In this document: in pieces, positions 1,932 through 61,915 of the stretch
How the letters are laid out: each line of letters begins with the position of its first letter
Position numbering within the stretch: position 1 is the first letter of the stretch
Assembly: GCA_965246995.1 (NCBI GenBank)
Contig: OZ252008.1
Location: forward strand, 562,323 to 626,322
Reading direction: 5' to 3'
Source: Vicinamibacterales bacterium
GTDB taxonomy: Bacteria; Acidobacteriota; Vicinamibacteria; Vicinamibacterales; UBA8438
Length of the DNA stretch: 64,000 nt
Made by a program: the position numbers and the translations under genes
The notes under the pieces: model-generated
Told to the model about the DNA's origin: nothing
What the model saw: the letters and a program-made list of their open reading frames with translations, nothing else
Databases searched by the model: none

Positions 1932-1988
1932 GGCGGAGATTCTATGCCTTAGCGATTACAGTGTAGAAGGTTGGTACAGAGGTCACGG

Positions 1989-2180
1989 ATGGCGCGCAAT
2001 CTCGAGAATGCGGAGACCGTACGGCTGGCCGAGGAACTGGAACGGCTACGTCCCGAGCGCTCCGGCCTGTCACGGCATGATCGGTTGCGGGCGCTCGCCC
2101 GGCTGTGCGCTCGGTTGCCGGAACGGGATCCACGCCTGGCCGACGAGATCGTCGGGTACGACGAGAACGGCCTGCCCTAG
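1989..2180 (+). CDS. VapB-type (Rv0623/PSK-like) antitoxin-like small protein with no cognate toxin gene
   Basis: MARNLENAETVRLAEELERL...RLADEIVGYDENGLP. The N-terminal ribbon-like segment and the C-terminal GYDExGLP ending resemble mycobacterial VapB30-type antitoxins, from memory. The track ORF starts at 1971; the ATG at 1989 is more likely. The stop TAG (2178-2180) is the flank of the MITE. Confidence 0.55.
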   Translation: MARNLENAETVRLAEELERLRPERSGLSRHDRLRALARLCARLPERDPRLADEIVGYDENGLP

Positions 2181-2338
2181 GAGCCCGTGGTGAAACCCCT
2201 GCTACATTCGAGCGGCGATGCATCCCGCCTGAACGGCGTTGCTCCTCGGTCTCATACGGCCAATATGCTCCCTCGTCGCGCCTTGTCAGGCGAGCGCCTC
2301 ACCGCTCTCGGTGCTACGCGGGGTTTCACCACGGGCTC
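2181..2338 (+). mobile_element. MITE-like palindromic element, copy A (short form, 158 bp)
   Basis: Termini are GGAGCCCGTGGTGAAACCCC ... GGGGTTTCACCACGGGCTCC, perfect 20-bp inverted repeats. It is flanked by CTAG (2177-2180) and CTAG (2339-2342). It is near-identical to five other copies in the window. Confidence 0.85.
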
Positions 2339-3082
2339 CTAGCGCCCGTCCCACTGTTCGAGCATCCAGTTGCCCGCGTCCTGCAGGGACGGAACGTAGC
2401 TGCCCATGTTGAAGTGACCGATCCCTTCGAGGGTCGTGAAGGCGACCGGGTGGCCGGCTGCCTCGAGGCGCTGGAACGCCTCCTCGGCGGGTTCGAAGGG
2501 GACCACTTCATCGACGCGGCTATGGATGATGTGGATCGGCATGGTGCCGAAGGCGTCGGGCGCGTGGTCACCGGGGCGGCCCGCGATGGGGATGGCGCCG
2601 GTGAAGAAGTCGGAGTGCTGCCCCGCGAAGAACCATGTGCCGGCGCCGCCGAGGCTGAAGCCGGTCACGAGGATGCGCGACCGGTCGATCGTGTAGTCGT
2701 CGAGGATCTGCTCGAGCAGCGCCATCACCCCCCGATCGGCTACCTCGGAGGTCCAGCGGCGGGTCGGCACGTCGGGGGCGACCATGATGGCGCCGAGCTC
2801 GCGCAACCCCGGCGCGAAGATGCCTTGCATGTTCCGGCTGCCGTAGTACGCGCCGTTGATGCCGCCGGGGTGGAGCGCCAGGACGAGCGGGCGCGGCTCG
2901 CCCGCCGGGTCGTAGCCGGCCGGCACCGATACGGCGTAAGGCATCTCGCCGTGGCCGTCGATCGTGAAGACCAGATGCTCCATCGTGGGACGTCCTCCCT
3001 GGAATGGGAGAACTACTGCTGTACTGGCTGCCGTCAGTCCCGCCCCCACGATCAGAATGCCGACTGACCGAATGGTACGCAT
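2339..3082 (-). CDS. Secreted alpha/beta-hydrolase (esterase/depolymerase-like)
   Basis: 247 aa with an N-terminal hydrophobic signal, the nucleophile elbow GFSLGG and a C-terminal His region (GIGHF). The stop codon is the reverse TAG of the CTAG flank of MITE copy A. Confidence 0.75.
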   Translation of the reverse strand: MRTIRSVGILIVGAGLTAASTAVVLPFQGGRPTMEHLVFTIDGHGEMPYAVSVPAGYDPAGEPRPLVLALHPGGINGAYYGSRNMQGIFAPGLRELGAIMVAPDVPTRRWTSEVADRGVMALLEQILDDYTIDRSRILVTGFSLGGAGTWFFAGQHSDFFTGAIPIAGRPGDHAPDAFGTMPIHIIHSRVDEVVPFEPAEEAFQRLEAAGHPVAFTTLEGIGHFNMGSYVPSLQDAGNWMLEQWDGR

Positions 3083-4486: not shown

Positions 4487-4591
4487 CGATGAGGTTGTTC
4501 CCGCTACTTTGGCGTCGGAAGCGTTGGGGCAGATTCCCGCGGTGTCGGTAGATAACGTGTTCGTCGAACCGTCGAAGCAAAGAGAGGCTGG

Positions 4592-4749
4592 GAGTCCGTG
4601 GTGAAACCCCGGGTAGCACCGAGAGCGGCGAGGCGCTCGCCTGACAAGGCGCGACGAGGAAGCATATTGGCCATATGAGACCGAGGAGCAACGCCGTTCA
4701 GGCGGGATGCATCGCCGCTCGAATGTAGCGGGGGTTTCACCACGGGCTC
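4592..4749 (-). mobile_element. MITE-like palindromic element, copy B (short form, 158 bp, inverted orientation)
   Basis: Same family as copy A. Termini are GAGTCCGTGGTGAAACCCC ... GGGGGTTTCACCACGGGCTC. It is flanked by the direct repeat CTGG (4588-4591) and CTGG (4750-4753). Confidence 0.85.
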
Positions 4750-4808
4750 CTGGAGACTGGGTGGGTGAACATCGCGAAGAGGCGTTGAGCGAAACGGAGG
4801 GATGAGCG

Positions 4809-14130: not shown

Positions 14131-14183
14131 GTGCCGGTCGGGAGACCGGCACACCGACCGGCGAACCGACCGGCGCAGCGGCC
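14131..14183. repeat. GC-rich hairpin plus ~12-nt repeat element, copy 1 (intergenic)
   Basis: GTGCCGGTCGGGAGACCGGCACACCGACCGGCGAACCGACCGGCGCAGCGGCC. The hairpin is GCCGGTC-GGGA-GACCGGC, followed by (N5)GACCGGC units. Confidence 0.75.
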
Positions 14184-15500: not shown

Positions 15501-15536
15501 GGGGCGGGAGTATATGGGAAAGGGTGGGTTTTATTT

Positions 15537-16979: not shown

Positions 16980-16984
16980 CCCAG

Positions 16985-17178
16985 GAGCCCGTGGTGAAAC
17001 CCCTGCTACATTCGAGCGGCGATGCATCCCGCCTGAACGGCGTTGCTCCTCGGACTGCGTTCAGTCCGCGGACTGCGTCAGTCCGCGGTCGCAATATGGC
17101 CAATATGCTCCCTCGTCGCGCCTTGTCAGCCGGGCGCCTCACCGCTCTCGGTGCGACGCGGGGTTTCACCACGGGCTC
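16985..17178 (+). mobile_element. MITE-like palindromic element, copy C (long form, 194 bp, two central hairpin modules)
   Basis: It has the same termini as copy A. The centre carries GGACTGCGTTCAGTCC and GGACTGCGTCAGTCC. Flanks are CCAG (16981-16984) and CTAG (17179-17182). It lies between trkA and trkH. Confidence 0.85.
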
Positions 17179-17192
17179 CTAGCACCCAGTCG

Positions 17193-18659
17193 ATGCGGGT
17201 CATCATCGTCGCGTCGATCGCCGGCCGTATCCTGCGGGTCTTCGGCGCCGCCTTTCTCGCCCCCGCCATCGTCGCCGCTCTCTACCGCGAGTGGACGGAC
17301 CTGCCCGGCTTCGTCATCGGCGGGTTGCTCTGCGCCGCGATCGGCGAAGCGATGATTCGCGGATCGCGCGGCGCCGGGGAAGACCTTCGCCGCATCGAGG
17401 CGCTCGCGGTGGTCTCCGGTGTCTGGCTGATGCTCGCCCTGCTGTGCGCGGTGCCCTACGTCTGGGTCGGGCTGCATCCCATCGATGCGTTATTCGAGGC
17501 GATGTCGGGCATCACGGCGACCGGCGCCACCATCCTGGTCGACTTCGACACACCGGGCCGCGGTTTCTTCTTCTGGCGCGCGATGACGCAGTGGCTGGGC
17601 GGCATGGGCGTTATCGCACTGGTGCTGGCGGTACTGCCGCGCCTCGCGATCGGGGTGCGGCAGCTCTTCGTCGCCGAGGTGCCGGGTCCGACCGAGGAGA
17701 AACTGGCGCCGCAGATCCGGAAGACCGCCGCGACGCTCTGGCGCTTTTATGCCGGGCTGACCGTGGCGGAGGTGATCGCACTGATGGTGGCGGGGATGCC
17801 GCTCTTCGATGCGGTCTGCCACGCGTTCACCAATGTCGCGGCGGGCGGGTTCTCGCCGGACCCGCAGTCTATTGCGGGCTACAACAGCGTCGCGATCGAG
17901 TGGATCGTCATCGTCTTCATGTTCTTGTCCGGCGCCAACTTCGCGCTCCAGTACCGCGCGGTGCTCGGTTACCCCGGCGGTCTGGTGCGCGACGACGAAT
18001 TCCGCGCTTACGTCGGCATCGCCACCGGTGCGGCGGCAATCCTGGCCGTGCTGTTGTGGCAGTTGGAATCAGCCGGCGCGCCCATCCGGACGGCGCTGTT
18101 CCAGGTGCTCTCCATCCTGACCACCACCGGCTACGCCAGCGTCGACTTCGAGATGTGGACGGATCAGACGAAGGTGGTGCTGCTCGCCATGATGTTCATC
18201 GGCGGCTGCGCCGGCTCGGCGGCGGGCGGCCCGAAGGTGCTGCGCCACATGCTGATCGGCCGTTTCACGCTGACCGAGCTGCGGCGCACGCTCCATCTGC
18301 GGGGTGTCATGCCCGTCAAGTTGGGCGGGAAGGCGGTGCCGGAGGAAGTAATCCGTTCCGTCCTGGTGTTCTTTCTCTTCTACATCCTGATGTTCGCGAT
18401 TAGCACCGCTGCCCTCATCGCCTTCGGCGCCGACATGGAGACGGCGGTGACCGCGACGGCCGGCACCCTCGGCAACGTCGGGCCGGGTTTCGGCGAGGTG
18501 GGACCGATGACGCACTATGGCAGTCTGCACCCGGTGAGCAAGTTGATGTTGACCGCCGCCATGTGGATTGGCCGCCTCGAGGTGGTCACGGTCCTGGCCC
18601 TCCTTCGCCCGGAGGTGTGGCTGCGGGCCCACTGGCAGGGCATCACCCCGCGCGGTTAG
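17193..18659 (+). CDS. trkH: Trk potassium uptake system, membrane subunit
   Basis: From the ATG at 17193 it reads MRVIIVASIAGRILRVFG... and is polytopic, with TrkH-type selectivity-filter-like segments (SGITATGAT, NVAAGGFS, LTTTGYAS). The track ORF start at 17043 lies inside the MITE. Confidence 0.88.
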   Translation: MRVIIVASIAGRILRVFGAAFLAPAIVAALYREWTDLPGFVIGGLLCAAIGEAMIRGSRGAGEDLRRIEALAVVSGVWLMLALLCAVPYVWVGLHPIDALFEAMSGITATGATILVDFDTPGRGFFFWRAMTQWLGGMGVIALVLAVLPRLAIGVRQLFVAEVPGPTEEKLAPQIRKTAATLWRFYAGLTVAEVIALMVAGMPLFDAVCHAFTNVAAGGFSPDPQSIAGYNSVAIEWIVIVFMFLSGANFALQYRAVLGYPGGLVRDDEFRAYVGIATGAAAILAVLLWQLESAGAPIRTALFQVLSILTTTGYASVDFEMWTDQTKVVLLAMMFIGGCAGSAAGGPKVLRHMLIGRFTLTELRRTLHLRGVMPVKLGGKAVPEEVIRSVLVFFLFYILMFAISTAALIAFGADMETAVTATAGTLGNVGPGFGEVGPMTHYGSLHPVSKLMLTAAMWIGRLEVVTVLALLRPEVWLRAHWQGITPRG

Positions 18660-25048: not shown

Positions 25049-26776
25049 ATGGTGATCATGTCCAGAAAGACACTGGCGGTGGCGGCGATGCTGGGAATCA
25101 CGCTGATCGGCTCCGACTTCCAAACGCAGGCGCAAACGCAGGATGCCCTCGGCCACGGCTACAGCCGCCCGGCCCGCAGCGTCCATGGCAGCCGTTCCGA
25201 GGTGATCGCCCCGAACGGTATGGTCGCGGCGAGCCAGCCGCTTGCCGCGCAGGTGGGCCTCGAGGTCCTCAAGTCGGGCGGCAACGCGATCGATGCCGCC
25301 GTCGCGGTCAACGCGATGCTCGGCCTGGTCGAGCCGCACATGAACGGGGTTGGCGGCGACCTCTTCGCCATCCTCTGGCACGCCGAGACCGAGCAGCTCT
25401 ATGCGCTGAACGGCACCGGGCGCGCGCCGTACGAGATCAGCCGCGAGACGCTGGTCAGCCAGGGCTACGAACGGATGCCGGGCGCCGGTCCGCTCACCTG
25501 GACGGTTCCGGGCGCGGTCGATGCCTGGTCGCAACTGCTCGAACGCTTCGGCACGATGGAGCTGGCCGACCTGCTCCAGCCCGCCATCGACTACGCGCGC
25601 AACGGCTTCCCGGTCAGCGAGATCATTCAGGGGCAGTGGTCCGGGTCGATGCCGTCCCTCCGCGAGTGGCCGACATCAGCCGCGACGTACCTGCCGAACG
25701 GCAGGCCGCCGGCTGTGGGCGAGCTGTTCAAGAACCCGCAGCTCGCGGACACCTACGAACAGGTCGCGCGCGGCGGCCGCGATGCGTTCTACCGCGGCGA
25801 GATCGCGCGGAAGATAGTCGCGTTCAGTGAAGCGAACGGCGGCTACTTCACGATGGCCGACTTCGAGGATCACACGTCCGAGTGGGTCGAGCCGGTCGGC
25901 ACCAACTACCGCGGCTACGACATCTGGGAGGTACCGCCCAACAGCTCCGGGATCCTCGCACTGATGATCCTGAACATCCTGGAGGGCTATGACATCGCGT
26001 CGCTCGGCCACAACAGCGCGGATGCGCTGCACCTCTTCGCGGAGGCGAAGAAGCTGGTCTGGGCGGATCGCAACACCTACGTCGCCGACGCGAACGCCAA
26101 CACGCTGCCGACGCAGCCGCTCATCTCGAAGCCGTATGCGGAATCGCGCCGCAAGATGATCGACAAGGGACGCGCCGCGACCGAGGTGACCCCCGGCAAC
26201 CCGTTCGAGCACAGCGACACCGTCTATCTGACCGTGGTCGACAAGGACCGGAACGCCATCTCGTTCATCGAGAGCATCTTCGGCGGTTTCGGCTCGAAGA
26301 TCGTGCCGGGCGACCTCGGCTTCGCGCTCCAGAACCGGGGTTCAGGCTTCTCCCTCGAGGAGGGGCACCTCAATTCGCTCGAGCCGCACAAGCGCTCGCT
26401 CCACACCAACATGCCGGGCTTCGTCACCAAGGACGGCAAGCCGTTCATGCCGTTCGGCGTGATGGGCGGTCCGATGCAGCCGCAGGGTCACTGGCAGATC
26501 CTGTCGAACATCATCGACCACGGCATGAACATCCAGGAAGCGGGCGACGCCGCGCGCGTGCGCCACAGCCCGAGCAGCTATCCGGGGGGCACGCTGGCCG
26601 TCGAGCCGGGCATCTCGGACGAAGTCATCGCGGAGCTCCGCCGCCGCGGCCACCATGTCGAACGGCAGGGTGGGGGCGGCATGGGGGGCTACCAGGCGAT
26701 CATGATCCACCCCGAAACCGGCATGCTCCACGGCGGGACCGATCCTCGCAAGGACGGTCTGGTGGCGGGGTACTAG
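25049..26776 (+). CDS. ggt: Gamma-glutamyltranspeptidase
   Basis: It has a signal peptide and GMVAASQPLAAQVGLEVLKSGGNAIDAAVA. The autoprocessing region reads HSDTVYLTVVDKDRNAISFIESIFGGFGS. The stop TAG (26774-26776) lies in the CTAG flank of MITE copy D. Confidence 0.9.
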   Translation: MVIMSRKTLAVAAMLGITLIGSDFQTQAQTQDALGHGYSRPARSVHGSRSEVIAPNGMVAASQPLAAQVGLEVLKSGGNAIDAAVAVNAMLGLVEPHMNGVGGDLFAILWHAETEQLYALNGTGRAPYEISRETLVSQGYERMPGAGPLTWTVPGAVDAWSQLLERFGTMELADLLQPAIDYARNGFPVSEIIQGQWSGSMPSLREWPTSAATYLPNGRPPAVGELFKNPQLADTYEQVARGGRDAFYRGEIARKIVAFSEANGGYFTMADFEDHTSEWVEPVGTNYRGYDIWEVPPNSSGILALMILNILEGYDIASLGHNSADALHLFAEAKKLVWADRNTYVADANANTLPTQPLISKPYAESRRKMIDKGRAATEVTPGNPFEHSDTVYLTVVDKDRNAISFIESIFGGFGSKIVPGDLGFALQNRGSGFSLEEGHLNSLEPHKRSLHTNMPGFVTKDGKPFMPFGVMGGPMQPQGHWQILSNIIDHGMNIQEAGDAARVRHSPSSYPGGTLAVEPGISDEVIAELRRRGHHVERQGGGGMGGYQAIMIHPETGMLHGGTDPRKDGLVAGY

Positions 26777-26952
26777 GAGCCCGTGGTGAAACCCCCGCTA
26801 CATTCGAGCGGCGATGCATCCCGCCTGAACGGCGTTGCTCCTCGGACTGTGGCAGTCCGCGGTCGTCATATGGCCAATATGCTCCCTCGTCGCGCCTTGT
26901 CAGGCGAGCGCCTCGCCGCTCTCGGTGCTACGCGGGGTTTCACCACGGACTC
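26777..26952 (+). mobile_element. MITE-like palindromic element, copy D (medium form, 176 bp, one central hairpin module)
   Basis: It has the same termini as the other copies and a central GGACTGTGGCAGTCC. It is flanked by CTAG (26773-26776) and CTAG (26953-26956). Confidence 0.85.
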
Positions 26953-28158
26953 CTAGTTCCACGGAGGGGTCCTCCCCAATTCCGCTGGCGCGAGGGACAA
27001 GTTGGGAAGAGCCGCGAGACGGGCCACGTCCGTGACCGCCAGGACTGTGATGTTGCGGTCCGCCGGGTAGGTGCTGTTCGTTGGACAGACGACGAACAGG
27101 TGATCGAGCCCGAGTGTGGCGGTAACGTTGCGCAACTGGGCGGTCACCCTGGGCGCCTCGCTGAACTTCACCTCGAATCCGATACGGCGGCCGCGGTGTA
27201 ACACGAGCAGGTCCAGCTCGCCGCCCCCGTGGGCCGCCCAGAACCACGCCTGAACGGGATCCAGGGCCGACAGGATCTGTTCGATCACGAAGCCTTCCCA
27301 GGATGGCCCGACACGCGGGTGGCTGAAGAGCTCGGCGTCGTTCCGGATCCCGAGCAACGCGTGCAGCAGACCGGTGTCGCGGAGGTAGACCTTCGGCGCC
27401 TTGACCTGGCGCTTGGCGACGTTCTCGTACCAGGGCTGGAGCTGGCGGACCATGAAGGCTCCGGTCAGCAGGTCCAGATAACCGCGGACCGTCTTGTCAG
27501 AGGCGCTGATCGAGCGGCCCAGGCTGGAGGCGTTCCAGGTCTGGCCGTGCCAGTGCGCGAGCATCGTCCAGAACCGCTCGAGGGCGGCGGCCCGGATGGT
27601 GATGCCCAATTGCGGGATGTCGCGTTCCAGGAACGTGCGTATGAACGCGCGGCGCCACGAGTGGCCGTCGTCATCCGTCGGCGCGAGATACGACCTCGGA
27701 AGTCCGCCGCGCAGCCAGAGCGTCCGCCAGGCGTCGGCGCCGGTCTCCGAGAGATCGAAGCCGGTCATATCGATGAACTCGACCCGGCCGGCGAGGGACT
27801 CGGATACAACCCGCACGATCCCGGGTGACGCGCTGCCCAGGATCAGGAAGCGCGTTCTCGCGCCGGGGCGGTCTGCCAGCACCCGCAGGACGTTGAAGAG
27901 GTGCGGCATCCGCTGGATTTCGTCCACCACAACCAAGCCGTCGAGCGCCCCGAGGACCAGCTCGGGATTGGCGATTCGGCGAACGTCCTGATTGGATTCC
28001 AGGTCAAGAAAGGTGGCGTTGCGCGTTGCCGCGAACTGCCGGGCGAGCGTCGTCTTGCCGCACTGCCGGGGTCCCAGCAGCGAGGTGACAGGCGCGCGGC
28101 GGGTTGCGGCGGCGAGTCGATCCAGGTAGTCGGAGCGGGCAACCAGGGTGTCTGACAC
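26953..28158 (-). CDS. AAA+ ATPase with a DUF4143-type C-terminal domain (COG1373-like)
   Basis: The Walker A motif is LLGPRQCGKTTLARQF and the Walker B region is LVVVDEIQ. 401 aa with a GTG start. The stop is the reverse TAG of the MITE flank. Confidence 0.75.
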   Translation of the reverse strand: MSDTLVARSDYLDRLAAATRRAPVTSLLGPRQCGKTTLARQFAATRNATFLDLESNQDVRRIANPELVLGALDGLVVVDEIQRMPHLFNVLRVLADRPGARTRFLILGSASPGIVRVVSESLAGRVEFIDMTGFDLSETGADAWRTLWLRGGLPRSYLAPTDDDGHSWRRAFIRTFLERDIPQLGITIRAAALERFWTMLAHWHGQTWNASSLGRSISASDKTVRGYLDLLTGAFMVRQLQPWYENVAKRQVKAPKVYLRDTGLLHALLGIRNDAELFSHPRVGPSWEGFVIEQILSALDPVQAWFWAAHGGGELDLLVLHRGRRIGFEVKFSEAPRVTAQLRNVTATLGLDHLFVVCPTNSTYPADRNITVLAVTDVARLAALPNLSLAPAELGRTPPWN

Positions 28159-36929: not shown

Positions 36930-38375
<1,446 letters not shown>

Positions 38376-39973
38376 GAGTTTGCGCCGCAGAAAAGGGATG
38401 CGACAATCGCAGACCATCCGACGACGAAAGGACCTGATGTCGACGACGTTCCGCCGCTACGCACCGGACCAGACCCTGTTGCTGCCAGCCGACATGCGGG
38501 AGTGGCTGCCGGAAGGCCACTTGGCGCATCACGTGAGCGACCTGGTGGACGGTTTGGATCTGACGGCGTTCTACGCGCCGTATGAGGGAGACGGACGGCG
38601 CAACGCGCCGTATGCGCCGCGGATGCTGGTGAAGGTGCTGATCTACGCGTATGCGACGGGGGTGTTTTCGTCGCGGGGGATCGCGAAGAAGCTGGAAGAG
38701 GACGTGGCGTTCCGGGTGCTGGCGGCGGGCAACTTTCCGCAACACCGGACGGTGTGCGAGTTCCGTCGGCGGCACCTTGGGGACTTCAAGAAACTGTTTG
38801 TGGAGGTGGTGCGTCTGGCGCAAGAGCTGGGGCTGGCGAGCTTCGGGAAGTTGTCGATAGACGGGACGAAGGTGCGGGCGAACGCGAGCAAGCGCAAGGC
38901 GATGAGCTACGGTCGGATGCAGGAGGAGGAGCGTCGCTTGGTCGGCGAGATTGACGCGCTGCTGGCGTCGGCGGACGACGCTGACGCGGCCGAGGATGCG
39001 CGGTTGGGGGCGGAGGTGCGCGGCGACGAGCTGCCGACGGAGTTGCGGCGGCGGGAGGATCGTCTGGCGGCGATCCGGGCGGCGAAGGCGCGTCTGGAGG
39101 CGGCGCAGCGGGCGGCGGACGACGCGCGCGGGCGGCAGCCGGGCGAGGGTCGGAACCCGCAGGGCGGTCGGCCGTACAAGCGGGGGTATGGCGAGCCGGA
39201 CGAGAAGGCGCAGAGCAACTTCACGGATCCGGACAGCGGGATCATGAAGACGAGCAACGAAGGGTTCCAGCAGTGCTACAACGCGCAGGTGGCGGTGGAT
39301 GGTGACCACCAGTTGGTGGTGGCGACCGACGTGACGGCGAACGCGAGTGACCAGGGCGGGTTGCCGGCGCTGCTCGACGCGGTGTCGGAGACGTTCGACG
39401 CGCAGCCGGAGACGGTGCTGGCCGACGCCGGGTATTGCAACGAGCGGGACTTGGTGGACCTGGAGACGCGGGGCGTCAACGGGTATGTGGCGCCGGGACG
39501 AGAGGGTAAGACGGCGGCGACCAGCGACCCCAAGAAGCATCCGGCGACGAGTCGCATGTCGGAGAAACTGGCGACGCGGGCGGGCCGGGCGGCGTATGCG
39601 GAACGCAAGTGGCTGTCGGAGGCCCCGCACGGCTGGATCAAGCACGTGCTGGGATTCCGGCGCTTCAGCCTGCGGGGACTCGCCACGGCGGGCGGCGAGT
39701 GGGACTTGGTGTGCCTGGCGTTGAACGTCAAACGCCTTCAGCCCCTGATGGGGATGTGAAACGCGAGGTATGAAGCCGGCAACGGCCGCGCAGCGGTGCG
39801 AATCGTGGCCGCTGGCGAGCCCCGGGGCGCGTCGGAGCCGATTTTGCCGACCGTTTCGCCGGCCGCCGAGAATCGACCTCGCCCGCTGACCGGCGAAGTC
39901 GCCCCGACGCGGTGCGTCAGGTTGTGGGCCGACGGCCAACTATCGTCCGGCGAATCTCCTGCGGCGCAGACTC
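38376..39973 (+). mobile_element. IS1182-family insertion sequence, copy 1 (1598 bp)
   Basis: The inverted termini are GAGTTTGCGCCGCAG and CTGCGGCGCAGACTC. It is flanked by CTAG (38372-38375) and CTAG (39974-39977) and contains a single transposase ORF. Confidence 0.85.
38437..39759 (+). CDS. IS1182-family DDE transposase
   Basis: MSTTFRRYAPDQTLLLPADMREWLPEGHLAHHV...RNAPYAPRMLVKVLIYAYATGVFSSRGIAKKLEEDVAFRVLAAGNFPQHRTVCEFRRRH...LSIDGTKVRANAS is the typical IS1182 N-terminal region and DDE region. Confidence 0.88.
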   Translation: MSTTFRRYAPDQTLLLPADMREWLPEGHLAHHVSDLVDGLDLTAFYAPYEGDGRRNAPYAPRMLVKVLIYAYATGVFSSRGIAKKLEEDVAFRVLAAGNFPQHRTVCEFRRRHLGDFKKLFVEVVRLAQELGLASFGKLSIDGTKVRANASKRKAMSYGRMQEEERRLVGEIDALLASADDADAAEDARLGAEVRGDELPTELRRREDRLAAIRAAKARLEAAQRAADDARGRQPGEGRNPQGGRPYKRGYGEPDEKAQSNFTDPDSGIMKTSNEGFQQCYNAQVAVDGDHQLVVATDVTANASDQGGLPALLDAVSETFDAQPETVLADAGYCNERDLVDLETRGVNGYVAPGREGKTAATSDPKKHPATSRMSEKLATRAGRAAYAERKWLSEAPHGWIKHVLGFRRFSLRGLATAGGEWDLVCLALNVKRLQPLMGM

Positions 39974-39977
39974 CTAG

Positions 39978-41681
39978 CCCGGATAATTCAGGAAGGGTCC
40001 GATTACGGTAGAAAAACAAGAGCCTCCGCGTGGTATAAATGGCTTATTCACAGACATTTACCCACCACGGAGGCCCTTGCGTGACGATCAATACGATACC
40101 ACAGACTGTCCTCTTTCCGGATCTCTTCGACAAGCCCCTCGTCGCGACGTTCGACCGCCGGCACGCGAGTTCCGATGGCGGCGCCGTCCTGCTCAAGGCG
40201 GCGGAGCGCGTGTATGGGTTGGTGGCGGGTTTCGCCCGGTGTCTGGTGGACCGGCGGGAGCCCGGGAAGATCCGGCACACGCTGGCGGAGTTGCTCGGCC
40301 AGCGGATCTTCGGCATTGCCTGCGGCCATCCCGATGGCAACGACGCCGACCACCTCGCCGACGACCCGATCCACAAGCTGTTGCTCGGGCGGGACCCGGT
40401 GGCGGGGGAGGCGTTGGCCTCGCAGCCGACGATCTCGCGGTTCGAGAACGGCGTTGGCCGGTCCGCCCTCTACGAGCTGGCGCGCGAGCTGGCGATGCGG
40501 GTCATCGAGCGGCATCAGCGCCGGCTGGACGGGCGGGCGCGGCGCATCACGATCGACCTGGATCCGACCGACGACGCGACGCACGGCGCCCAGCAGCTCA
40601 CCTTCTTCAACGGGCACTACGATCGCTGGTGCTACCTGCCGTTGCTGGCGTTTCTGACCTTCGACAAGGAACGCGAACAGTATCTGTGCGCGGCGGTGCT
40701 GCGGCCCGGCAATGTGCCGGCCCCCCGCGGGACCGTGGGCGTGTTGTGCCGGCTGCTGCCCCTGCTGCGGCAGGCCTTTCCCCAGGCGCGGTTTCTCGTC
40801 CGGCTCGACGGGGGCTTTGCGACACCGGAGATCTTCGACTTCCTGGATGCCGAGCCGCGGCTCGACTACGTGGTGGCCATGGCCAAGAACGCCGTGTTGC
40901 AGCGCCACGCCGAGCCCGCCCTGCTCGTGGCGCAGGCCCAGAGCGCGGCCAGCGGCCAGACCGCGCAGGTCTACGCCGACACCCGCTATCGGGCCCGCAC
41001 GTGGGACCGCGACCGCCGCGTCGTGATCAAGGCCGAGGTCGTCCGGCTCGGCGACCGCGCCCCGCGCGACAACCCGCGCTTCGTCGTGACCAATCTGCGC
41101 CAGACGCCGCGCTTCCTCTATGAACGGATCTACTGCGCCCGCGGCGACATCGAGAACCGCATCAAGGAACTGCTCGATGGCCTGCAGATCGACCGCACGA
41201 GCTGCTGTCGCTTCTGGGCCAATCAACTGCGCGTGCTGCTCACCGCCGCCGCCTACGTGCTGATGCAAGAACTCCGGCTGCGCGCGGCGCGCACCGCCTG
41301 TGCCCGCGCCCAGGTGACGTGGCTGCGCGACCGGCTCCTCAAATTGGGGGCGCACGTCGTCGGCTCGGTCCGCCGCGTGGTCCTGCACCTGCCGACCGCC
41401 ACGCCGGACCTCCACGCCTGGCGGCACATCGCGCTGGCACTCGGCGCCCGCCCCGGATAGACCCCAGACAGCGCCCGTCAGCCGCGCATACACGCATCCC
41501 AACGGCGAACCGAGCCCGCCCATGGCGAAGCCGTCCCTGGACGGCCCCATACCCAGGCCTTCCGCACCGGCAATCAGTGTCTATCCCGCCGGCGCTCGAC
41601 GAAAACGACGCCCGGCGGGCCGTGTGCGCGACGATCACACCGTCCGAGGGGCCATCTTGGAGCCTTCAGGAATAGTCCGGG
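39978..41681 (+). mobile_element. IS1380-family insertion sequence, copy 1 (1704 bp)
   Basis: The termini are imperfectly inverted (CCCGGATAATTCAGGAAGG and CCTTCAGGAATAGTCCGGG). It is flanked by CTAG (39974-39977) and CTAG (41682-41685). Confidence 0.8.
40039..41460 (+). CDS. IS1380-family DDE transposase
   Basis: ATFDRRHASSDGGAVLLKAAERVYGLVAGFARCL...IFGIACGHPDGNDADHLADDP...LASQPTISRFENGV...ITIDLDPTDD is the IS1380 pattern. Confidence 0.88.
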   Translation: MAYSQTFTHHGGPCVTINTIPQTVLFPDLFDKPLVATFDRRHASSDGGAVLLKAAERVYGLVAGFARCLVDRREPGKIRHTLAELLGQRIFGIACGHPDGNDADHLADDPIHKLLLGRDPVAGEALASQPTISRFENGVGRSALYELARELAMRVIERHQRRLDGRARRITIDLDPTDDATHGAQQLTFFNGHYDRWCYLPLLAFLTFDKEREQYLCAAVLRPGNVPAPRGTVGVLCRLLPLLRQAFPQARFLVRLDGGFATPEIFDFLDAEPRLDYVVAMAKNAVLQRHAEPALLVAQAQSAASGQTAQVYADTRYRARTWDRDRRVVIKAEVVRLGDRAPRDNPRFVVTNLRQTPRFLYERIYCARGDIENRIKELLDGLQIDRTSCCRFWANQLRVLLTAAAYVLMQELRLRAARTACARAQVTWLRDRLLKLGAHVVGSVRRVVLHLPTATPDLHAWRHIALALGARPG

Positions 41682-41685
41682 CTAG

Positions 41686-41861
41686 GAGTCCGTGGTGAAA
41701 CCCCGCGTAGCACCGAGAGCGGCGAGGCGCTCGCCTGACAAGGCGCGACGAGGGAGCATATTGGCCATATGACGACCGCGGACTGCCACAGTCCGAGGAG
41801 CAACGCCGTTCAGGCGGGATGCATCGCCGCTCGAATGTAGCAGGGGCTTCGCCACGGGCTC
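41686..41861 (-). mobile_element. MITE-like palindromic element, copy E (medium form, 176 bp, inverted orientation)
   Basis: It belongs to the same family, with a central GGACTGCCACAGTCC. Flanks are CTAG (41682-41685) and CTAA (41862-41865). Confidence 0.85.
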
Positions 41862-41887
41862 CTAAGCCGCTGGCCGCGCGAGGCCGG

Positions 41888-57526: not shown

Positions 57527-58399
57527 ATGCTGGCAGCAGAGCGGCATCGTAAGCGGGGGCTCTTCAAGAGCGAAGACCGACCGGCGGAGCTGGGGTGGCG
57601 GTTCCGCCTGCACGAGATCATCTTCGAAGCGGACACGCCCGCCGGCAAGCTCTTCGACGTCGCACTGCTGCTTGCCATCATCGCCAGCGTGGCGGTGGTG
57701 ATGCTCGAGAGCCTGCCGAACGTGCGGCCGCAGTTCGCCTCCCTGCTCCTCCAGATCGAGTGGGTGTTCACGCTCCTGTTCACCGTCGAGTACGCCGCGC
57801 GCATCGCGGCGGTGCGGTATCCGTCGCGCTACATCTTCAGTTTCTTCGGGTTGATTGACCTGATGGCGATCATCCCCACCTGGATCAGCCTGGTACTGCC
57901 CGGGGGCCAGGCGCTGATCGCGATCCGCGTGGTCCGGCTGATCCGCGTATTCCGTGTCCTGAAGCTCGGGCACTACCTGATGGGCGCGGAAGAGCTGACG
58001 GATGCGTTGCGCGAGAGCCGGCCGAGGATAGTCGTCTTTATGGCCGCAGTCGCGTCGATCGCGGTGGTGATGGGCGCGTTGATCTACCTGGTCGAAGGGG
58101 AGGAAAACGGCTTCACGTCGATCCCGCGGGGGGTCTACTGGGCCATCGTGACGATAACGACGGTCGGTTACGGCGACATCTCGCCGCAGACCACCGTCGG
58201 GCAGTTCGCCGCCGTGATCCTGATGCTGATTGGCTACGGGATCATCGCGGTGCCTACCGGCATCTTTTCGGCCGCCATCGCGCGGCGGGGGACGGACCCG
58301 ATATCGACGCAGGCGTGCCTGGAATGCAGCCGGGAGGGTCACGACCCGGACGCCGAGTTCTGCAAGCACTGCGGCGCCGACCTGCACCCGGGGGACTAG
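57527..58399 (+). CDS. Voltage-gated K+ channel (6-TM Kv-type) with a C-terminal zinc-ribbon tail
   Basis: The S4 segment is IRVVRLIRVFRVLKLGH and the selectivity filter is TTVGYGD. The tail is CLECSREGHDPDAEFCKHCGADL (CxxC...CxxC). The stop TAG (58397-58399) lies in the CTAG flank of the IS. Confidence 0.85.
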   Translation: MLAAERHRKRGLFKSEDRPAELGWRFRLHEIIFEADTPAGKLFDVALLLAIIASVAVVMLESLPNVRPQFASLLLQIEWVFTLLFTVEYAARIAAVRYPSRYIFSFFGLIDLMAIIPTWISLVLPGGQALIAIRVVRLIRVFRVLKLGHYLMGAEELTDALRESRPRIVVFMAAVASIAVVMGALIYLVEGEENGFTSIPRGVYWAIVTITTVGYGDISPQTTVGQFAAVILMLIGYGIIAVPTGIFSAAIARRGTDPISTQACLECSREGHDPDAEFCKHCGADLHPGD

Positions 58400-60018
58400 C
58401 AGCCTGTCGGACTTAGGCGCGGCAAACGCGCGTGGAAGCGACTTGGCACCTGTTTGAACGACGCCCTGTGTCTCTGTGCCGGGAGGGCCGCTTCGACCGA
58501 AACGGGGACTGTATCCTGGCCATCGGTCGCTGACGGCGCCTGGAGGTCTTTCTGACGCCTCTGGTGGGTCGCGAACACGCCGAGTTCCGCCCCGTATAGC
58601 CCCGTCATGCCAGCCTGAGGTTGTGCACGCGTCGGCAGTTATACGCCAGCGTTACCAAGGCCCATTCGCCCTCCACCTTCTCAAGACCCCGCAGCAGAAA
58701 CTGCCGGAAGCCCATCGCCTGCTTCACGATCCCGAACACCGGCTCCACCGTCTGCTGGCGCAAACGGTAATGCGCCCGGTGCTCCGGCAGTGCCATCTTC
58801 TCCTGCATCGACTTGATCCAGTCCGCCTGCGGCTCCTTCGCCAGCTGCTCCGGCGGCTCCGGTCGGAAGTCGTGCCGGCGCCGTTGGCCTTCCGCCCCCG
58901 TCGCCACCAACACCTCCACACCGCGACCTGCCAGTTGCGACACCTCGCTGCCCGTCGCGTAGCCACTGTCCGCCAGTACCCGATCCGCCGCGCCCACCGC
59001 CGTCGGTATCGCGTCCACGTCCGCCACCAACTCGTTGCGGTCGCTCGCGCACACGCTCACCCGCGACCCCAACACCAACTGACTGCCGTCGGCATCCACC
59101 ACCGCCTGCGCGTTGTATGCCTGGCGGTACTCATGGCGCCGGCTCTTGCGCATCAGCGCACTGTCCGCATCCGTCAGGTTGATCTGCGCCTTCGCCTCCG
59201 GCGCGTCCCTCGGCGGCGTGATGTGCCGACCCTTGCGCGATCCCGCACGCCGCTCCCGCGCCGCCACCGTGCGCTCGTACTCCGCCCGCTCCGCGTCCGC
59301 ACGCGCCTGCGCACGCCGTTCCAACTCCGCGCACGCACGGTCCAGCTTCGCCCGTAGCGTCTCGCGCCGCGACAACTCCTCCGGCAGACCCTGTGGGTCC
59401 GGCACGTCGTCCGTGTCGGCGTGCTCCGCCTGATCCAACAACCCCTCGATCTCGCCTCGCAACTGCTCGCGCAACGCCCCCGCACGGTCGTAGCGGATGC
59501 TGTTGCGCTTGTTCGCGTTCGCGTCCACCTTCGTCCCGTCCACGCTCACCGTCCCAACACGCAGCAACTGCAGCTCCTTCGCCAGCAGCAGTACCTGCAG
59601 GAACGCCTCCGCTACCGCTTCGAAGTTGCTGCGCCGGAACGTGCAGATCGTGTCGTGGTCCGGATGACAGTTCGCCGCCACGTACCGAACGCCAATGTCC
59701 CGATACGTCGCCCGCTCGATCCGACGCGAGCCGAAGATCCCGTTCGCGTAGCAGTACACCAGCAACGCCAGCATCATCCGCGGGTGATACTGCGCCGATC
59801 CGGTGCCCCGTTCGTTCACCTGGAACCGCTCCAGCGGCACCCGTTCCACCGCCTCCACCACGAAGTGCGCCAGATCGTCCTCAGGCAGCCAATCGCGCAG
59901 GTCCGGCGGCAGCAGATACAACTGCGACTGGTGCCGCTGTACAAAATTCGGCATCTACTTCTACCCCCTCAACTCGACAAGCCCCATTATAAAACCCGGG
60001 CCTAAGTCCGACAGGCTG
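58400..60018 (-). mobile_element. IS1182-family insertion sequence, copy 2 (1619 bp, a different element from copy 1)
   Basis: It has perfect 19-bp inverted termini, CAGCCTGTCGGACTTAGGC ... GCCTAAGTCCGACAGGCTG. It is flanked by CTAG (58396-58399) and CTAG (60019-60022). Confidence 0.88.
58605..59954 (-). CDS. IS1182-family DDE transposase
   Basis: MPNFVQRHQSQLYLLPPDLRDWLPEDDLAHFV...YHPRMMLALLVYCYANGIFGSRRIERATYRDIGVRYVAANCHPDHDTICTFRR...VSVDGTKVDANAN. Confidence 0.88.
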   Translation of the reverse strand: MPNFVQRHQSQLYLLPPDLRDWLPEDDLAHFVVEAVERVPLERFQVNERGTGSAQYHPRMMLALLVYCYANGIFGSRRIERATYRDIGVRYVAANCHPDHDTICTFRRSNFEAVAEAFLQVLLLAKELQLLRVGTVSVDGTKVDANANKRNSIRYDRAGALREQLRGEIEGLLDQAEHADTDDVPDPQGLPEELSRRETLRAKLDRACAELERRAQARADAERAEYERTVAARERRAGSRKGRHITPPRDAPEAKAQINLTDADSALMRKSRRHEYRQAYNAQAVVDADGSQLVLGSRVSVCASDRNELVADVDAIPTAVGAADRVLADSGYATGSEVSQLAGRGVEVLVATGAEGQRRRHDFRPEPPEQLAKEPQADWIKSMQEKMALPEHRAHYRLRQQTVEPVFGIVKQAMGFRQFLLRGLEKVEGEWALVTLAYNCRRVHNLRLA

Positions 60019-60022
60019 CTAG

Positions 60023-61733
60023 CCCGGATTTCTCACCGTTGTAGATACAAGAGACTGCCTGTGATGGCGTAAAGTGTTGTGGCCGCAATACTTTCACACC
60101 AGACACGGAGGCAGCCTCTTGTCCACACAGTGTACGCCAATCCAACTTGAATTTCCGCGTGTCGGCCGCCGCCGACTGGTGGCGCGTTTCGGTGGCGGGC
60201 GGATTACCTCCAACGCGGGCGCGCTATTACTGCAGGCCGTGGAAGCGTGCACGCAGGTGTGCCGGCGTGCGGCGCGGTGCTTCCAGGATCACCGGGACGG
60301 GCGGTGGGTGGAGCACACGGTCGAGGAGTTAGTGACGCAGCGGGTGTTTGGCCTGGCGCTGGGCTACGAAGACCTGAACGACCACGACACGCTGCGGCGC
60401 GACGCGCTATTGGCGGCGGTGGTGGGCAAGGCGGACCCGACCGGGGCATCCCGGGTGCGGGCGGCGGACCGCGGGTCGGCCCTGGCGGGCAAGAGCACGT
60501 TGAACCGGCTGGAGTTGGCGGGGCCTGACGCGGAGACGGACCGCTACAAGAAGGTGAGCTATGACCAGGCGGCGCTCGATGCGCTGCTGGTCGACCTGTT
60601 CATCGAGGCCCACCCGCAGCCGCCCGTGCGCATCGTGCTCGATGTCGATGCCACCGACGACCCGCTGCACGGCCAACAGGAAGGGCGCTTTTTCCACGGC
60701 TACTACCGGCACTACTGCTATCTGCCGCTGTATGTCTTCTGCGGCGCGCACGTGCTGTGTGCACGGCTCCGGCCGGCGAACATCGATGCGGCGGCCGGCG
60801 TGGTCGATGAACTGGCGTGGATCGTGGACCGCGTGCGGCAGGCGTGGCCGACGGTGGCCATTCTGGTGCGCGGCGACTCGGGCTTCTGCCGGGACGCGTT
60901 GCTGAACTGGTGCGAGGCGCACCAGGTGGACTATCTCATCGGGGTCGCCAAGAACGACCGCCTCAAGGCGCAACTGGCGCCGGCGATGGTGCAGGCCCAG
61001 GCCCAGTGCCAGGCGAGCGGTCAGCCGGCCCGGGTGTTCGCCGACTTCGGCTATCGCACGCGCAAGAGCTGGAGCCGGGAGCGGCGGGTCGTCGGCAAGG
61101 CCGAGCACCTGCCGGCCGGGCCGAATCCGCGCTTCGTGGTGACCTCGCTGCCGGCAGACCGCGTCCCGGCCCAGCCGCTGTATGAGGACCTGTATTGCGC
61201 CCGCGGCGATATGGAGAACCGCATCAAGGAGCAGCAACTGGCCTTGTTTGCCGACCGCACCAGCAGTGCCACCCTGCGGGCCAACCAGTTGCGCCTCTAC
61301 TGGTCGACCTTGGCCTACGTCCTGTTGCACGCGCTCCGCAGCCGGGCTTTGGCAGGCACCCGGCTCGCCCGCGCCCAATGCGACACCTTACGCCTCCGGC
61401 TGCTCAAGGTCGGCGCCCATATCCGTGTCACCGCACGCTGCGTCTGGGTCGCGTTGACCGACTATCTGCCTGACGCCGACCTGTTCATCCTCGCCGCCAA
61501 CCGCTTGCACCAAGCGCGCGCACCCGCCTGACGCCCCAGTCCAACGCCAGACCACGTCCGCAGCTACCCGGTGGACTACCCCGGGGCCGGCCCGCTGCGC
61601 CCGACACGCCGCCGTCGGTGTCGCAACCGCCCCGTCCGCCGCCTTCCAACCTCTCCCGCGCGTCCGTGCTGGACCTCCTGCGCCGTAAACTCACCGCTTC
61701 AGCCTCGCGCCGGGTGGCTGTGAGAAATCCGGG
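60023..61733 (+). mobile_element. IS1380-family insertion sequence, copy 2 (1711 bp)
   Basis: The inverted termini are CCCGGATTTCTCAC ... GTGAGAAATCCGGG. It is flanked by CTAG (60019-60022) and CTAG (61734-61737). Confidence 0.85.
60074..61531 (+). CDS. IS1380-family DDE transposase
   Basis: ARFGGGRITSNAGALLLQAVE...VFGLALGYEDLNDHDTLRRD...LAGKSTLNRLE...IVLDVDATDDPLHG. Confidence 0.88.
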   Translation: MLWPQYFHTRHGGSLLSTQCTPIQLEFPRVGRRRLVARFGGGRITSNAGALLLQAVEACTQVCRRAARCFQDHRDGRWVEHTVEELVTQRVFGLALGYEDLNDHDTLRRDALLAAVVGKADPTGASRVRAADRGSALAGKSTLNRLELAGPDAETDRYKKVSYDQAALDALLVDLFIEAHPQPPVRIVLDVDATDDPLHGQQEGRFFHGYYRHYCYLPLYVFCGAHVLCARLRPANIDAAAGVVDELAWIVDRVRQAWPTVAILVRGDSGFCRDALLNWCEAHQVDYLIGVAKNDRLKAQLAPAMVQAQAQCQASGQPARVFADFGYRTRKSWSRERRVVGKAEHLPAGPNPRFVVTSLPADRVPAQPLYEDLYCARGDMENRIKEQQLALFADRTSSATLRANQLRLYWSTLAYVLLHALRSRALAGTRLARAQCDTLRLRLLKVGAHIRVTARCVWVALTDYLPDADLFILAANRLHQARAPA

Positions 61734-61737
61734 CTAG

Positions 61738-61896
61738 GAGCCCGTGGTGAAACCCCCGCTACATTCGAGCGGCGATGCATCCCGCCTGAACGGCGTTGCT
61801 CCTCGGTCTCATACGGGCCAATATGCTCCCTCGTCGCGCCTTGTCAGTCGGGCGCCTCACCGCTCTCGGTGCGACGCGGGGTTTCACCACGGGCTC
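61738..61896 (+). mobile_element. MITE-like palindromic element, copy F (short form, 159 bp)
   Basis: It belongs to the same family. Flanks are CTAG (61734-61737) and CTAA (61897-61900). Confidence 0.85.
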
Positions 61897-61915
61897 CTAA
61901 GGAGGATAGCCGCGA

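What the first reader, a model, noticed from the sequence alone, without database searches (positions are those of the whole stretch)
2177..2342. Element flanks double as stop codons: reconstructed empty sites are convergent genes sharing one CTAG
At copy A, the VapB-like gene (+) ends with the TAG at 2178-2180 and the esterase gene (-) ends with the reverse TAG at 2339-2341. Both stops lie in the two CTAG flanks. The same holds for copy D, with the ggt stop at 26774-26776 and the AAA ATPase stop at 26953-26955. Removing the element and one CTAG leaves two convergent genes whose stop codons overlap within a single palindromic CTAG.

The stops of ppk2 (38373-38375) and the Kv channel (58397-58399) are likewise the CTAG flanks of IS elements. 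Because CTAG contains TAG on both strands, a 4-bp duplication preserves both stop codons. This gives a neat explanation for why these elements accumulate exactly at gene ends without damaging them.
Basis: seen in the sequence. Interest (0 to 1): 0.55.

Follow-up and report, generated by a model that had tools for sequence, protein, structure and literature searches.

The report
Mobile elements landing in stop codons
A small non-coding mobile element, and two kinds of insertion sequence, in a GC-rich soil acidobacterium insert at the TA inside the rare sequence CTAG, which here sits largely in stop codons; the element's end base rebuilds a TAG stop, so insertions gather at gene ends without harming the genes. 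This is a tidy but expected result of known target-site rules.

Summary
Copies A (2180-2339) and D (26776-26953) of a 160-196 bp inverted-repeat element (MITE) are flanked by CTAG on both sides. All four flanks are stop codons of GC3-supported ORFs. The ppk2 and Kv stops are IS flanks.

The interpretation needs four corrections.
- The MITE duplicates TA, not CTAG. Its constant G...C termini rebuild TAG on each side.
- A related strain with the ppk2 site empty reads AGC-TAA-GCC. The native stop was TAA and became TAG on insertion.
- In three strains the Kv stop abuts MITE F only. The IS1182-like and IS1380-like elements therefore landed later in the regenerated CTAG, producing stacks.
- The ggt and esterase C-termini are native. 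The "VapB" ORF at copy A is a decayed relic: an ortholog carries vapB-vapC there. The AAA tail at copy D is not conserved. The "shared CTAG" empty site is thus unproven for A and D, although one free example exists elsewhere (L064:1349).

Across 63 copies from Vicinamibacterales genomes, 51% have at least one flank serving as a stop. Of free CTAG sites, 31% are stops, against 3% of free TA. After removing in-gene sites the excess is not significant. Target specificity, CTAG scarcity and purifying selection explain the pattern. I file it as a new member of a known kind.

The parts
2180..2339 (+). MITE copy A (160 bp, ends GGAG...CTCC), flanked by TA at 2178-2179 and 2340-2341. With the outer C and G, both junctions read CTAG.
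   Evidence: Folds as a near-perfect hairpin: -97 kcal/mol, z = -8.
4591..4750 (-). MITE copy B (160 bp, inverted relative to A). Flanks are CTG|TGG in the window but CTA|TAG in related strain L100.
16984..17179 (+). MITE copy C (196 bp) in the TrkA-TrkH spacer. The TrkA stop TAG (16977-16979) lies 4 nt upstream. Flanks are CCA|TAG.
26776..26953 (+). MITE copy D (178 bp), flanked by TA at 26774-26775 and 26954-26955. Both junctions read CTAG.
   Evidence: Also present in L093 and L094.
41685..41862 (-). MITE copy E (178 bp). Flanks are CTA|TAA. It is the rightmost member of the ppk2 stack.
   Evidence: Absent from L093-L097.
61737..61897 (+). MITE copy F (161 bp). Flanks are CTA|TAA. It is the rightmost member of the Kv stack.
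   Evidence: It directly abuts the Kv stop in L090-L092.
38375..39974 (+). IS1: an IS1182-family insertion sequence (1600 bp, TIR GGAGTTTGCGCCGCAG / GGAGTCTGCGCCGCAG) inserted in the ppk2 stop.
   Evidence: The transposase (38380-39759) matches NCBIfam IS1182 at 364 bits against a cut-off of 270. Pfam: DUF772 + DDE_Tnp_1 + DDE_Tnp_1_6.
39977..41682 (+). IS3: an IS1380-family insertion sequence (ends (G)CCCGGAT...ATCCGGG(C)) between IS1 and MITE E, with CTAG on both sides.
   Evidence: The transposase (40039-41460) matches NCBIfam IS1380 at 364 bits against a cut-off of 180.
58399..60019 (-). IS2: an IS1182-family insertion sequence (1621 bp, perfect 20-bp TIR GCAGCCTGTCGGACTTAGGC) inserted in the Kv stop CTAG.
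   Evidence: NCBIfam IS1182 at 304 bits against a cut-off of 270. Absent from L090-L092.
60022..61734 (+). IS3': an IS1380-family insertion sequence between IS2 and MITE F, with CTAG on both sides.
   Evidence: NCBIfam IS1380 at 385 bits against a cut-off of 180. Absent from L090-L092.
26774..26776 (+). ggt stop codon TAG. It is native: the same C-terminus and TAC-TAG occur in the empty ortholog.
26953..26955 (-). AAA_14/DUF4143 ATPase stop codon TAG. The C-terminal tail is not conserved, so its nativity is unproven.
2339..2341 (-). Esterase stop codon TAG. The C-terminus (...QWDGR) is native.
2178..2180 (+). Stop of the orphan, decayed vapB-like ORF. This is not the ancestral stop: the ortholog ends one codon later in a TGA that overlaps the vapC start.
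38373..38375 (+). ppk2 stop codon, now TAG. Its third base is the first base of IS1. The native stop was TAA.
58397..58399 (+). Kv-channel stop codon TAG. Its third base is supplied by the adjacent element (IS2 here, MITE F in L090-L092).

Best explanation
The window comes from a Vicinamibacterales (Acidobacteriota) genome of about 68% G+C. It carries a family of 160-196 bp non-autonomous inverted-repeat elements (MITEs).

Target and duplication. A DDE-type transposase supplied in trans inserts the MITE at the TA in the centre of 5'-C-TA-G-3', less often C-TA-A, and duplicates only the TA. The transposase is inferred and was not identified.

How the stop is rebuilt. The element always begins with G and ends with C. 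Each junction therefore reads TA|G when read inward, towards the element. A TAG or TAA stop whose TA is the target is rebuilt as TAG for a gene arriving from either side.

Why gene ends. CTAG is about 8-fold depleted in these genomes. About 40% of genes end in TAG, often after a C-ending codon. As a result, roughly one third of all free CTAG sites are stop codons, compared with 3% of free TA dinucleotides. Insertions inside genes are removed by selection. The combination makes copies accumulate exactly in stop codons, sometimes of two convergent genes at once.

Stacking. Each insertion regenerates CTAG at its junctions, or creates it from CTAA. Other elements that prefer CTAG (IS1182-family and IS1380-family ISs) then land in the same spot. 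This builds head-to-tail stacks of the form gene-stop|IS|IS|MITE.

Shown: the TA duplication, the target motif, the TAA-to-TAG change, the order of events at Kv, the intact C-termini of ggt, esterase, ppk2 and Kv, and the site statistics.

Inferred: the enzyme, the role of selection, and any effect on transcripts.
For: - Target logo from 66 copies: C at -3 in 57/66 and G at +3 in 56/66. TA is present in 58/66 on each side, and there is no preference beyond those positions.
- Flank pairs with unequal outer bases (CTA|TAA x4, TTA|TAG x3, GTA|TAA, ATA|TAT, CTA|TAT) keep the element's G...C ends constant, so only TA is duplicated.
- The empty ppk2 site in five contigs reads ...cgcagcTAAgccgctgg.... 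The filled site reads ...cgcagcTA|G[IS1]C|TA|G[IS3]C|TA|G[MITE E]C|TAAgccgctgg....
- In L090-L092 the Kv stop CTAG abuts MITE F directly. The window has IS2 and IS3' added there.
- In L001 the same AAA stop CTAG is followed by an IS1380-like end instead of MITE D.
- All 120 ggt homologs end ...GY or ...GF, and the free ortholog site L087 reads ggg-tac-TAG. The esterase homologs listed (45 read) end at the same position...W--R.
- Site statistics over 740 kb: 191 free CTAG, of which 31% are stops and 24% lie in genes. Of free TA, 3.0% are stops. Of occupied sites, 32/63 (51%) have at least one stop flank. Fisher p = 0.006 against all free CTAG, but p = 0.22 once in-gene free sites are excluded.
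- Stacking recurs elsewhere: MITE copies abut IS1-type ends in L039, L045, L053 and L085.
- IS630 is known to insert at TA in CTAG (Tenzen & Ohtsubo, cited in PMC2170065). An IS5-derived MITE is known to target CTAG or YTAA (PMC3189936). Some IS1182-family members target palindromes (PMC5678879).
Against: - No autonomous element with matching TIRs was found in the 85 loci, so the mobilising transposase is unknown.
- Gene calls in the multi-genome census rest on a crude GC3 heuristic rather than annotation.
- The loci were chosen because they contain the element. The 'free site' background therefore comes from element-rich neighbourhoods.
- Two of the four flanks at copies A and D do not fit simple 'native stop preserved': the vapB relic and the AAA tail.
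- For the IS1182-like and IS1380-like elements, a 2-bp and a 4-bp duplication cannot be told apart, because the target is a palindrome.
Confidence: 0.8

Rival explanations
1. One reading: the elements duplicate the 4-bp palindrome CTAG, and empty sites are convergent genes sharing one CTAG.
For: - 36 of 66 copies are flanked CTA|...|TAG. That is indistinguishable from a CTAG duplication when the target is CTAG.
- A free shared-CTAG convergent pair exists at L064:1349.
- IS1380-family elements may well duplicate 4 bp. Their CC... ends with CTAG on both sides are consistent with that.
Against: - The empty ppk2 site is CTAA with stop TAA.
- Copies E, F and about 10 others have unequal 4-mers on the two sides.
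- At copy A the ortholog has vapBC rather than a shared CTAG.
- At copy D the AAA gene is absent from the nearest empty ortholog, and its tail is unconserved.
Confidence: 0.1
2. Evolved safe-haven targeting, or host co-option. The elements actively seek gene ends, or are kept there because the long hairpin acts as a two-way terminator or insulator between convergent genes.
For: - Both flanks are stops in 4/63 occupied sites against 1/191 free CTAG sites (p = 0.014).
- The element folds into a very stable hairpin, z = -8.
- The constant G...C termini guarantee a TAG on each side.
Against: - Two of the four double-stop cases are the window copies for which the finding was selected. Without them the comparison is 2/57 against 1/191, which is not convincing.
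- After excluding in-gene sites, the excess at stops is not significant (p = 0.22).
- No T-run follows the hairpin.
- Many copies lie next to gene starts (27 of 126 flanks) or in plain spacers.
Confidence: 0.12
3. Artefact of ORF reading. Every junction reads TAG inward, so any ORF entering in the right frame, including truncated or spurious ones, ends there. The 'stop codons' would then be incidental.
For: - The vapB-like ORF at copy A is a decayed relic ending one codon short of the ortholog's stop.
- The AAA tail is a non-conserved extension that simply runs until the CTAG.
- High-GC DNA has many long spurious ORFs.
Against: - ggt, esterase, ppk2 and Kv end at the family-typical or strain-identical C-terminus.
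- Pfam profiles are matched to their ends: ggt 512/512 and PPK2 226/229.
- Flank-stop ORFs in other genomes are 125-949 aa long with coding GC3.
- Stop positions peak sharply at the flank: 36 exactly in the flank against 18 within the next 50 nt.
Confidence: 0.05

Closest known systems
IS630 (IS630/Tc1/mariner superfamily) target choice: TA within 5'-CTAG-3'
   Same: Insertion at the central TA of CTAG with a 2-bp TA duplication (Tenzen et al. 1990; Tenzen & Ohtsubo 1991, as cited in PMC2170065). Many bacterial MITEs such as RUP and Correia are likewise TA-flanked (PMC2229807).
   Different: No IS630-type transposase or matching TIR was found. The termini are GGAG/GCAG, not IS630-like. The element is non-autonomous. 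The host is a high-GC acidobacterium, where the target coincides with stop codons.
MITEPsy1 / IS5-family elements targeting CTAG or YTAA (Pseudomonas syringae)
   Same: A roughly 100-bp MITE with GG... termini that inserts at CTAG or YTAA (PMC3189936). The motif is the same C-TA-R found here.
   Different: MITEPsy1 duplicates 4 nt, whereas this MITE duplicates 2 (TA). No stop-codon association was reported in the passages read.
IS1182 family
   Same: IS1 and IS2 in the window are members by NCBIfam score. The family is said to include members that target palindromes (PMC5678879). The MITE termini share 7-9 of their first 13 nt with IS1 and IS2 ends, against 2-3 of 13 with the IS1380-like ends. 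A 108-bp mini-element with IS1-type TIRs exists at L085.
   Different: The TIR similarity is too weak to call IS1 or IS2 the parent. The mobilising enzyme for the MITE was not identified.
Mariner (Himar1) TA insertions in GC-rich genomes, and MIRU repeats overlapping stop/start codons in Mycobacterium (from my own knowledge, not checked here)
   Same: TA-specific elements in high-GC DNA find many of their tolerated sites in or next to stop codons. Small repeats can share stop codons with flanking genes.
   Different: Those are laboratory transposons or a different type of repeat. This is a natural MITE population with direct empty/filled pairs and IS stacking.

Membership tests
MITE (non-autonomous TIR element) | Short, with no coding capacity | tested here: met
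   Length 160-196 bp in the window, with a mode of 160 bp over 66 copies. No Rfam match.
MITE (non-autonomous TIR element) | Terminal inverted repeats | tested here: met
   A 20-nt TIR gives 12 hits against 0.01 expected. The whole element folds as a hairpin.
MITE (non-autonomous TIR element) | Target-site duplication shown by an empty/filled comparison | tested here: met
   The ppk2 site is CTAA when empty and carries TA...TA when filled. TA flanks occur in 58/66 copies on each side.
MITE (non-autonomous TIR element) | Multicopy, with presence/absence polymorphism | tested here: met
Copy E is absent from L093-L097.
MITE (non-autonomous TIR element) | A cognate autonomous IS with matching TIRs | tested here: inconclusive
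   No TIR pair more than 326 bp apart was found, and no transposase lies next to solo TIRs.
IS630/Tc1-mariner-derived element | TA duplication with a preference for CTAG | tested here: met
IS630/Tc1-mariner-derived element | TIRs matching an IS630-family IS, with a DDE_3-type transposase in the same genomes | not tested
   No such transposase was seen in the window or the loci, but no dedicated search was run.
IS1182 family (IS1, IS2) | Transposase scores above the NCBIfam NF033551 cut-off | tested here: met
   363.9 and 304.5 bits against a cut-off of 270.
IS1380 family (IS3, IS3') | Transposase scores above the NCBIfam NF033539 cut-off | tested here: met
   364.2 and 384.8 bits against a cut-off of 180. 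Pfam DDE_Tnp_1_4.
IS1380 family (IS3, IS3') | Short (4-5 bp) target duplication and CC termini (recalled from ISfinder, not checked) | tested here: inconclusive
   The ends are CCCGGAT... with CTAG on both sides. A 2-bp TA duplication with G...C ends fits equally well.

The most novel reading that the evidence does not exclude
Stop-codon landing may be more than a by-product. On this reading, the MITE's G...C termini turn TAA and TAG stops into perfect CTAG sites that recruit unrelated IS families (IS1182, IS1380). The result would be self-renewing 'landing pads' at gene ends. The MITE hairpin would be kept preferentially between convergent genes as a two-way transcript insulator. That would amount to a lineage-wide safe-haven system shared by several element families in Vicinamibacterales.
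Probability: 0.15. Interest if true: 0.55.

Novelty: new member of a known kind. Interest (0 to 1): 0.35.

Why it matters
- It explains in concrete terms how a high-GC genome can carry many copies of TA/CTAG-specific elements at little cost. The target motif is scarce inside genes and common in stop codons, and the element's terminal base rebuilds the stop.
- The natural empty/filled pairs found here show a TAA-to-TAG stop change caused by insertion. They also show step-wise stacking of three element families at one regenerated site. This helps in annotating MAGs from an abundant but poorly studied soil lineage.
- In annotation, ORFs may be wrongly extended into MITEs, and assemblies break at these stacks.
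- It also warns that a stop codon in an element flank is not proof of an intact gene. The vapB relic next to a lost vapC is an example.

Tried and rejected
- Rfam scan of the window: no family.
- Exact-protein look-ups for ggt, esterase and ppk2: not on record. Neighbouring genes were used instead.
- Exact-pattern scans of metagenome contigs for the reconstructed empty sites of D (GGCGGGGTACTAGTTCCACGGAGG) and A (GGCCTGCCCTAGCGCCCGTCCCAC): 0 hits each. No true empty site for A or D was obtained.
- Search for the autonomous parent. No TIR pairs more than 326 bp apart turned up. tblastn of the four window transposases against the 85 loci hit only IS1380 fragments in L075. ORFs next to solo TIRs in L034 and L016 are not transposases; one is a Na/Ca exchanger and one a thioesterase.
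- IS1 or IS2 as the MITE parent: rejected as unproven, since only 7-9 of the first 13 terminal nt are shared.
- Literature searches for a described stop-codon/CTAG MITE association: nothing specific. They found only the known CTAG/TA target preferences and CTAG under-representation.
- Excess of double-stop sites (p = 0.014): judged unreliable, because 2 of the 4 cases are the ascertained window copies.

Full report
**Observation**

The sequence is as described. Copy A is GGAGCCCGTGGTGAAACCCC...GGGGTTTCACCACGGGCTCC at 2180-2339. Copy D lies at 26776-26953. Each has CTAG at both junctions.

The ORFs 1971..2180(+), 2339..3082(-), 25049..26776(+) and 26953..28158(-) end in those CTAGs. ppk2 (..38375) and the Kv channel (..58399) end in CTAGs that abut IS ends. 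A third-position GC test marks all of these as coding frames. Pfam identifies them as a VapB-like Rv0623 domain, an alpha/beta hydrolase, gamma-glutamyltranspeptidase, AAA_14+DUF4143, PPK2 and an ion channel.

The window has six copies of the element: A, B 4591-4750, C 16984-17179, D, E 41685-41862 and F 61737-61897. It has only 25 CTAG against 81 expected, and 11 of them flank mobile elements.

**What the elements are**

The 160-196 bp element is a MITE. It has 20-nt TIRs, no coding capacity, a hairpin fold (-97 kcal/mol, z = -8) and no Rfam match.

Nearly all are Vicinamibacterales MAGs, so the window is from that order of Acidobacteriota.

The two IS at the ppk2 and Kv stops (38375-39974 and 58399-60019) encode IS1182-family transposases. 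Each is followed by an IS1380-family element (39977-41682 and 60022-61734) and then by a MITE, E or F. Both loci are therefore stacks of the form stop|IS1182|IS1380|MITE. Each junction is a CTAG, except the outermost right one, which is CTAA.

**Size of the duplication**

In 66 paired copies the flanks are CTA|...|TAG in 36. The informative exceptions are CTA|TAA x4, TTA|TAG x3, GTA|TAA, ATA|TAT and CTA|TAT. In these the bases outside the TA differ between the two sides, while the element's first G and last C never change. The logo is C(57/66)-TA-G(56/66), with nothing beyond it.

The MITE thus duplicates TA inside C-TA-G. The apparent CTAG at each junction is outer base + TA + element terminus.

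**Empty and filled sites**

1. *ppk2.* Five contigs from related strains carry an identical neighbouring BON protein. They read ...ctgaagcgcagcTAAgccgctggccgcgcgaggccggTCA..., with no IS1, IS3 or MITE E. The window has the same left and right sequences, separated by the three-element stack. The native stop was TAA. It is now TAG because the adjacent element supplies the G. Only TA was added per junction.
2. *Kv.* Three contigs with the identical Kv protein have the stop CTAG directly abutting MITE F, followed by CTAA and the YdjM gene. IS2 and IS3' therefore entered later, at the CTAG of the Kv/MITE junction.
3. *ggt.* All 120 best homologs end ...GY or ...GF, as the window protein does. The closest ortholog (90% identity, L087) has an unoccupied ...ggg tac TAG cacgta CTA..., that is, a free CTAG stop. 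The 83-84% orthologs use TAC TGA and carry no element.
4. *Esterase.* The homologs listed (45 read) end at the same position with a terminal Arg...W--R; one (P0160) has a short extension.
5. *AAA.* A metagenome contig with the identical AAA protein has the same stop CTAG followed by an IS1380-like end instead of MITE D. The site was therefore hit independently.

**Where the reconstruction fails**

At copy A, the ortholog L101 (esterase 84% identical, same aldo-keto reductase neighbour) carries an intact vapB (84 aa, ending ...GLPT with a TGA that overlaps the vapC start). It also carries vapC (PIN, 137 aa), convergent on the esterase, whose stop there is TGA.

The window has no vapC. Its vapB has a 21-aa internal deletion and ends at ...GLP-TAG. 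MITE A sits exactly where vapC would be. The "VapB" stop is therefore the end of a relic. The inferred empty site (VapB and esterase sharing one CTAG) probably never existed in that form. A MITE-associated deletion, or recombination between two copies, is the simplest account, but this is inference.

At copy D, the AAA gene and about 100 bp of AT-rich DNA are absent from L087. The AAA C-terminal tail is 9-15 residues longer than in its 84-91% identical homologs and is not conserved. That ORF may simply run on until the palindromic CTAG.

No true empty site for A or D was found. The arrangement itself is real elsewhere: L064:1349 is a free CTAG shared by two long convergent ORFs.

**Is the association more than target availability?**

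The analysis covers 740 kb of Vicinamibacterales DNA at 68.8% G+C.

| Class of site | Number | Share that are stops | Share inside ORFs |
|---|---|---|---|
| Free TA | 9172 | 3.0% | 74% |
| Free CTAG | 191 (about 8-fold fewer than base composition predicts) | 31% | 24% |
| MITE copies away from locus edges | 63 | 32 (51%) have at least one flank that is the stop of a coding-like ORF | at most 5 weak candidates |

Fisher p is 0.006 against all free CTAG. It rises to 0.22 once in-gene free sites are removed. Specificity for C-TA-G, the concentration of that motif in stop codons (TAG is about 40% of stops) and loss of in-gene insertions are therefore sufficient.

The excess of double-stop sites (4/63 against 1/191, p = 0.014) depends on the two ascertained window copies, and I do not rely on it. 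The gene calls here are heuristic.

**Stacking is general**

Fifteen of 66 copies abut a G[GC]AG-type terminal motif across the TA. At least four of these (L039, L045, L053, L085) are clear IS1-type ends, and L085 also holds a 108-bp mini-element with IS1-type TIRs. This follows from each insertion regenerating its own target.

**Comparison with known systems**

- IS630 inserts at TA in CTAG (cited in PMC2170065).
- MITEPsy1, an IS5 derivative, targets CTAG or YTAA with a 4-nt duplication (PMC3189936).
- Most bacterial MITEs are TA-flanked (PMC2229807).
- Some IS1182-family members target palindromes (PMC5678879).

I found no paper describing the stop-codon coincidence or this MITE family. The behaviour nevertheless follows from known rules.

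The parent IS is unresolved. The MITE termini share 7-9 of their first 13 nt with the IS1182-like ends, which is only a hint.

**Verdict**

The mechanism is ordinary: target-site specificity combined with sequence composition and selection. It comes with three neat details: TA duplication with G/C termini rebuilding TAG, a TAA-to-TAG conversion, and IS stacking at regenerated CTAG sites. It is a new member of a known kind, of modest interest.

Noticed in passing
window 1971-2339; L101 3200-4060: MITE A occupies the exact place of a vapC (PIN) toxin gene that is present in an ortholog. The remaining vapB has a 21-aa internal deletion and has lost its last codon. This looks like an orphan antitoxin relic left by a MITE-associated deletion.
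   Followed up: partly
window 26953-28250; L087 4230-4250: The AAA_14/DUF4143 ATPase gene and an AT-rich upstream stretch (containing a TCGGAT-ACTAG-ATCCGA hairpin with a CTAG at 28187) are absent from the closest ggt ortholog locus. There the ggt and cytochrome c stops are only 6 nt apart. The AAA C-terminal tail is not conserved.
   Followed up: partly
window 38375-41862 and 58399-61897; L001 4203-6090: The same order, gene-stop | IS1182-like | IS1380-like | MITE, occurs twice in the window. L001 has stop | IS1380-like | MITE with GCAG ends. The IS1380-like element lies next to a MITE end in every case seen (3 of 3, plus fragments in L075). This may be a preference for MITE junctions.
   Followed up: partly
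window 4588-4753; L100 20893-21058; flanks of 66 copies: Nearly all non-TA flank variants are CCAG or CTGG, that is, transitions of CTAG. Copy B is CTAG on both sides in strain L100 but CTGG on both sides in the window. This suggests directional decay of CTAG, as proposed elsewhere for very-short-patch-type repair. That link is recalled from memory and was not tested.
   Followed up: no
window 10764-11126: A tandem array of at least eight 33-bp units (64-79% identical to the reference unit) lies inside overlapping ORFs.
   Followed up: no
window 14132-14183, 15536-15575, 22195-22282, 33055-33094: A second, GC-rich short repeat family (TGCCGGTCGGGAGACCGGC...CCGACCGGCG) occurs in intergenic spacers. 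It looks REP-like.
   Followed up: no
window 6467-6879: Four CTAG sites cluster within about 400 bp, inside the gene 5309-6964 (tRNA-synt_1c-type by synteny with L100). This is unusual given the genome-wide scarcity of CTAG. The 2-6 kb region also has lower G+C (0.62).
   Followed up: no
window copies C, D, E (for example 26846-26870); L016 2263, L034 4392, L083: The MITE has size variants of 160, 178 and 196 bp, caused by one or two copies of an internal small hairpin (GGACTG..CAGTCCGCGG). Other genomes carry half-elements or chimeric derivatives that share only the right arm, with no transposase nearby.
   Followed up: partly
window 17043-17192: The mechanical ORF for TrkH (17043..18659) starts at a TTG inside MITE C. 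The real start is about 17193, judged from the 488-aa ortholog in L100. This shows how these elements can mislead ORF calls.
   Followed up: partly
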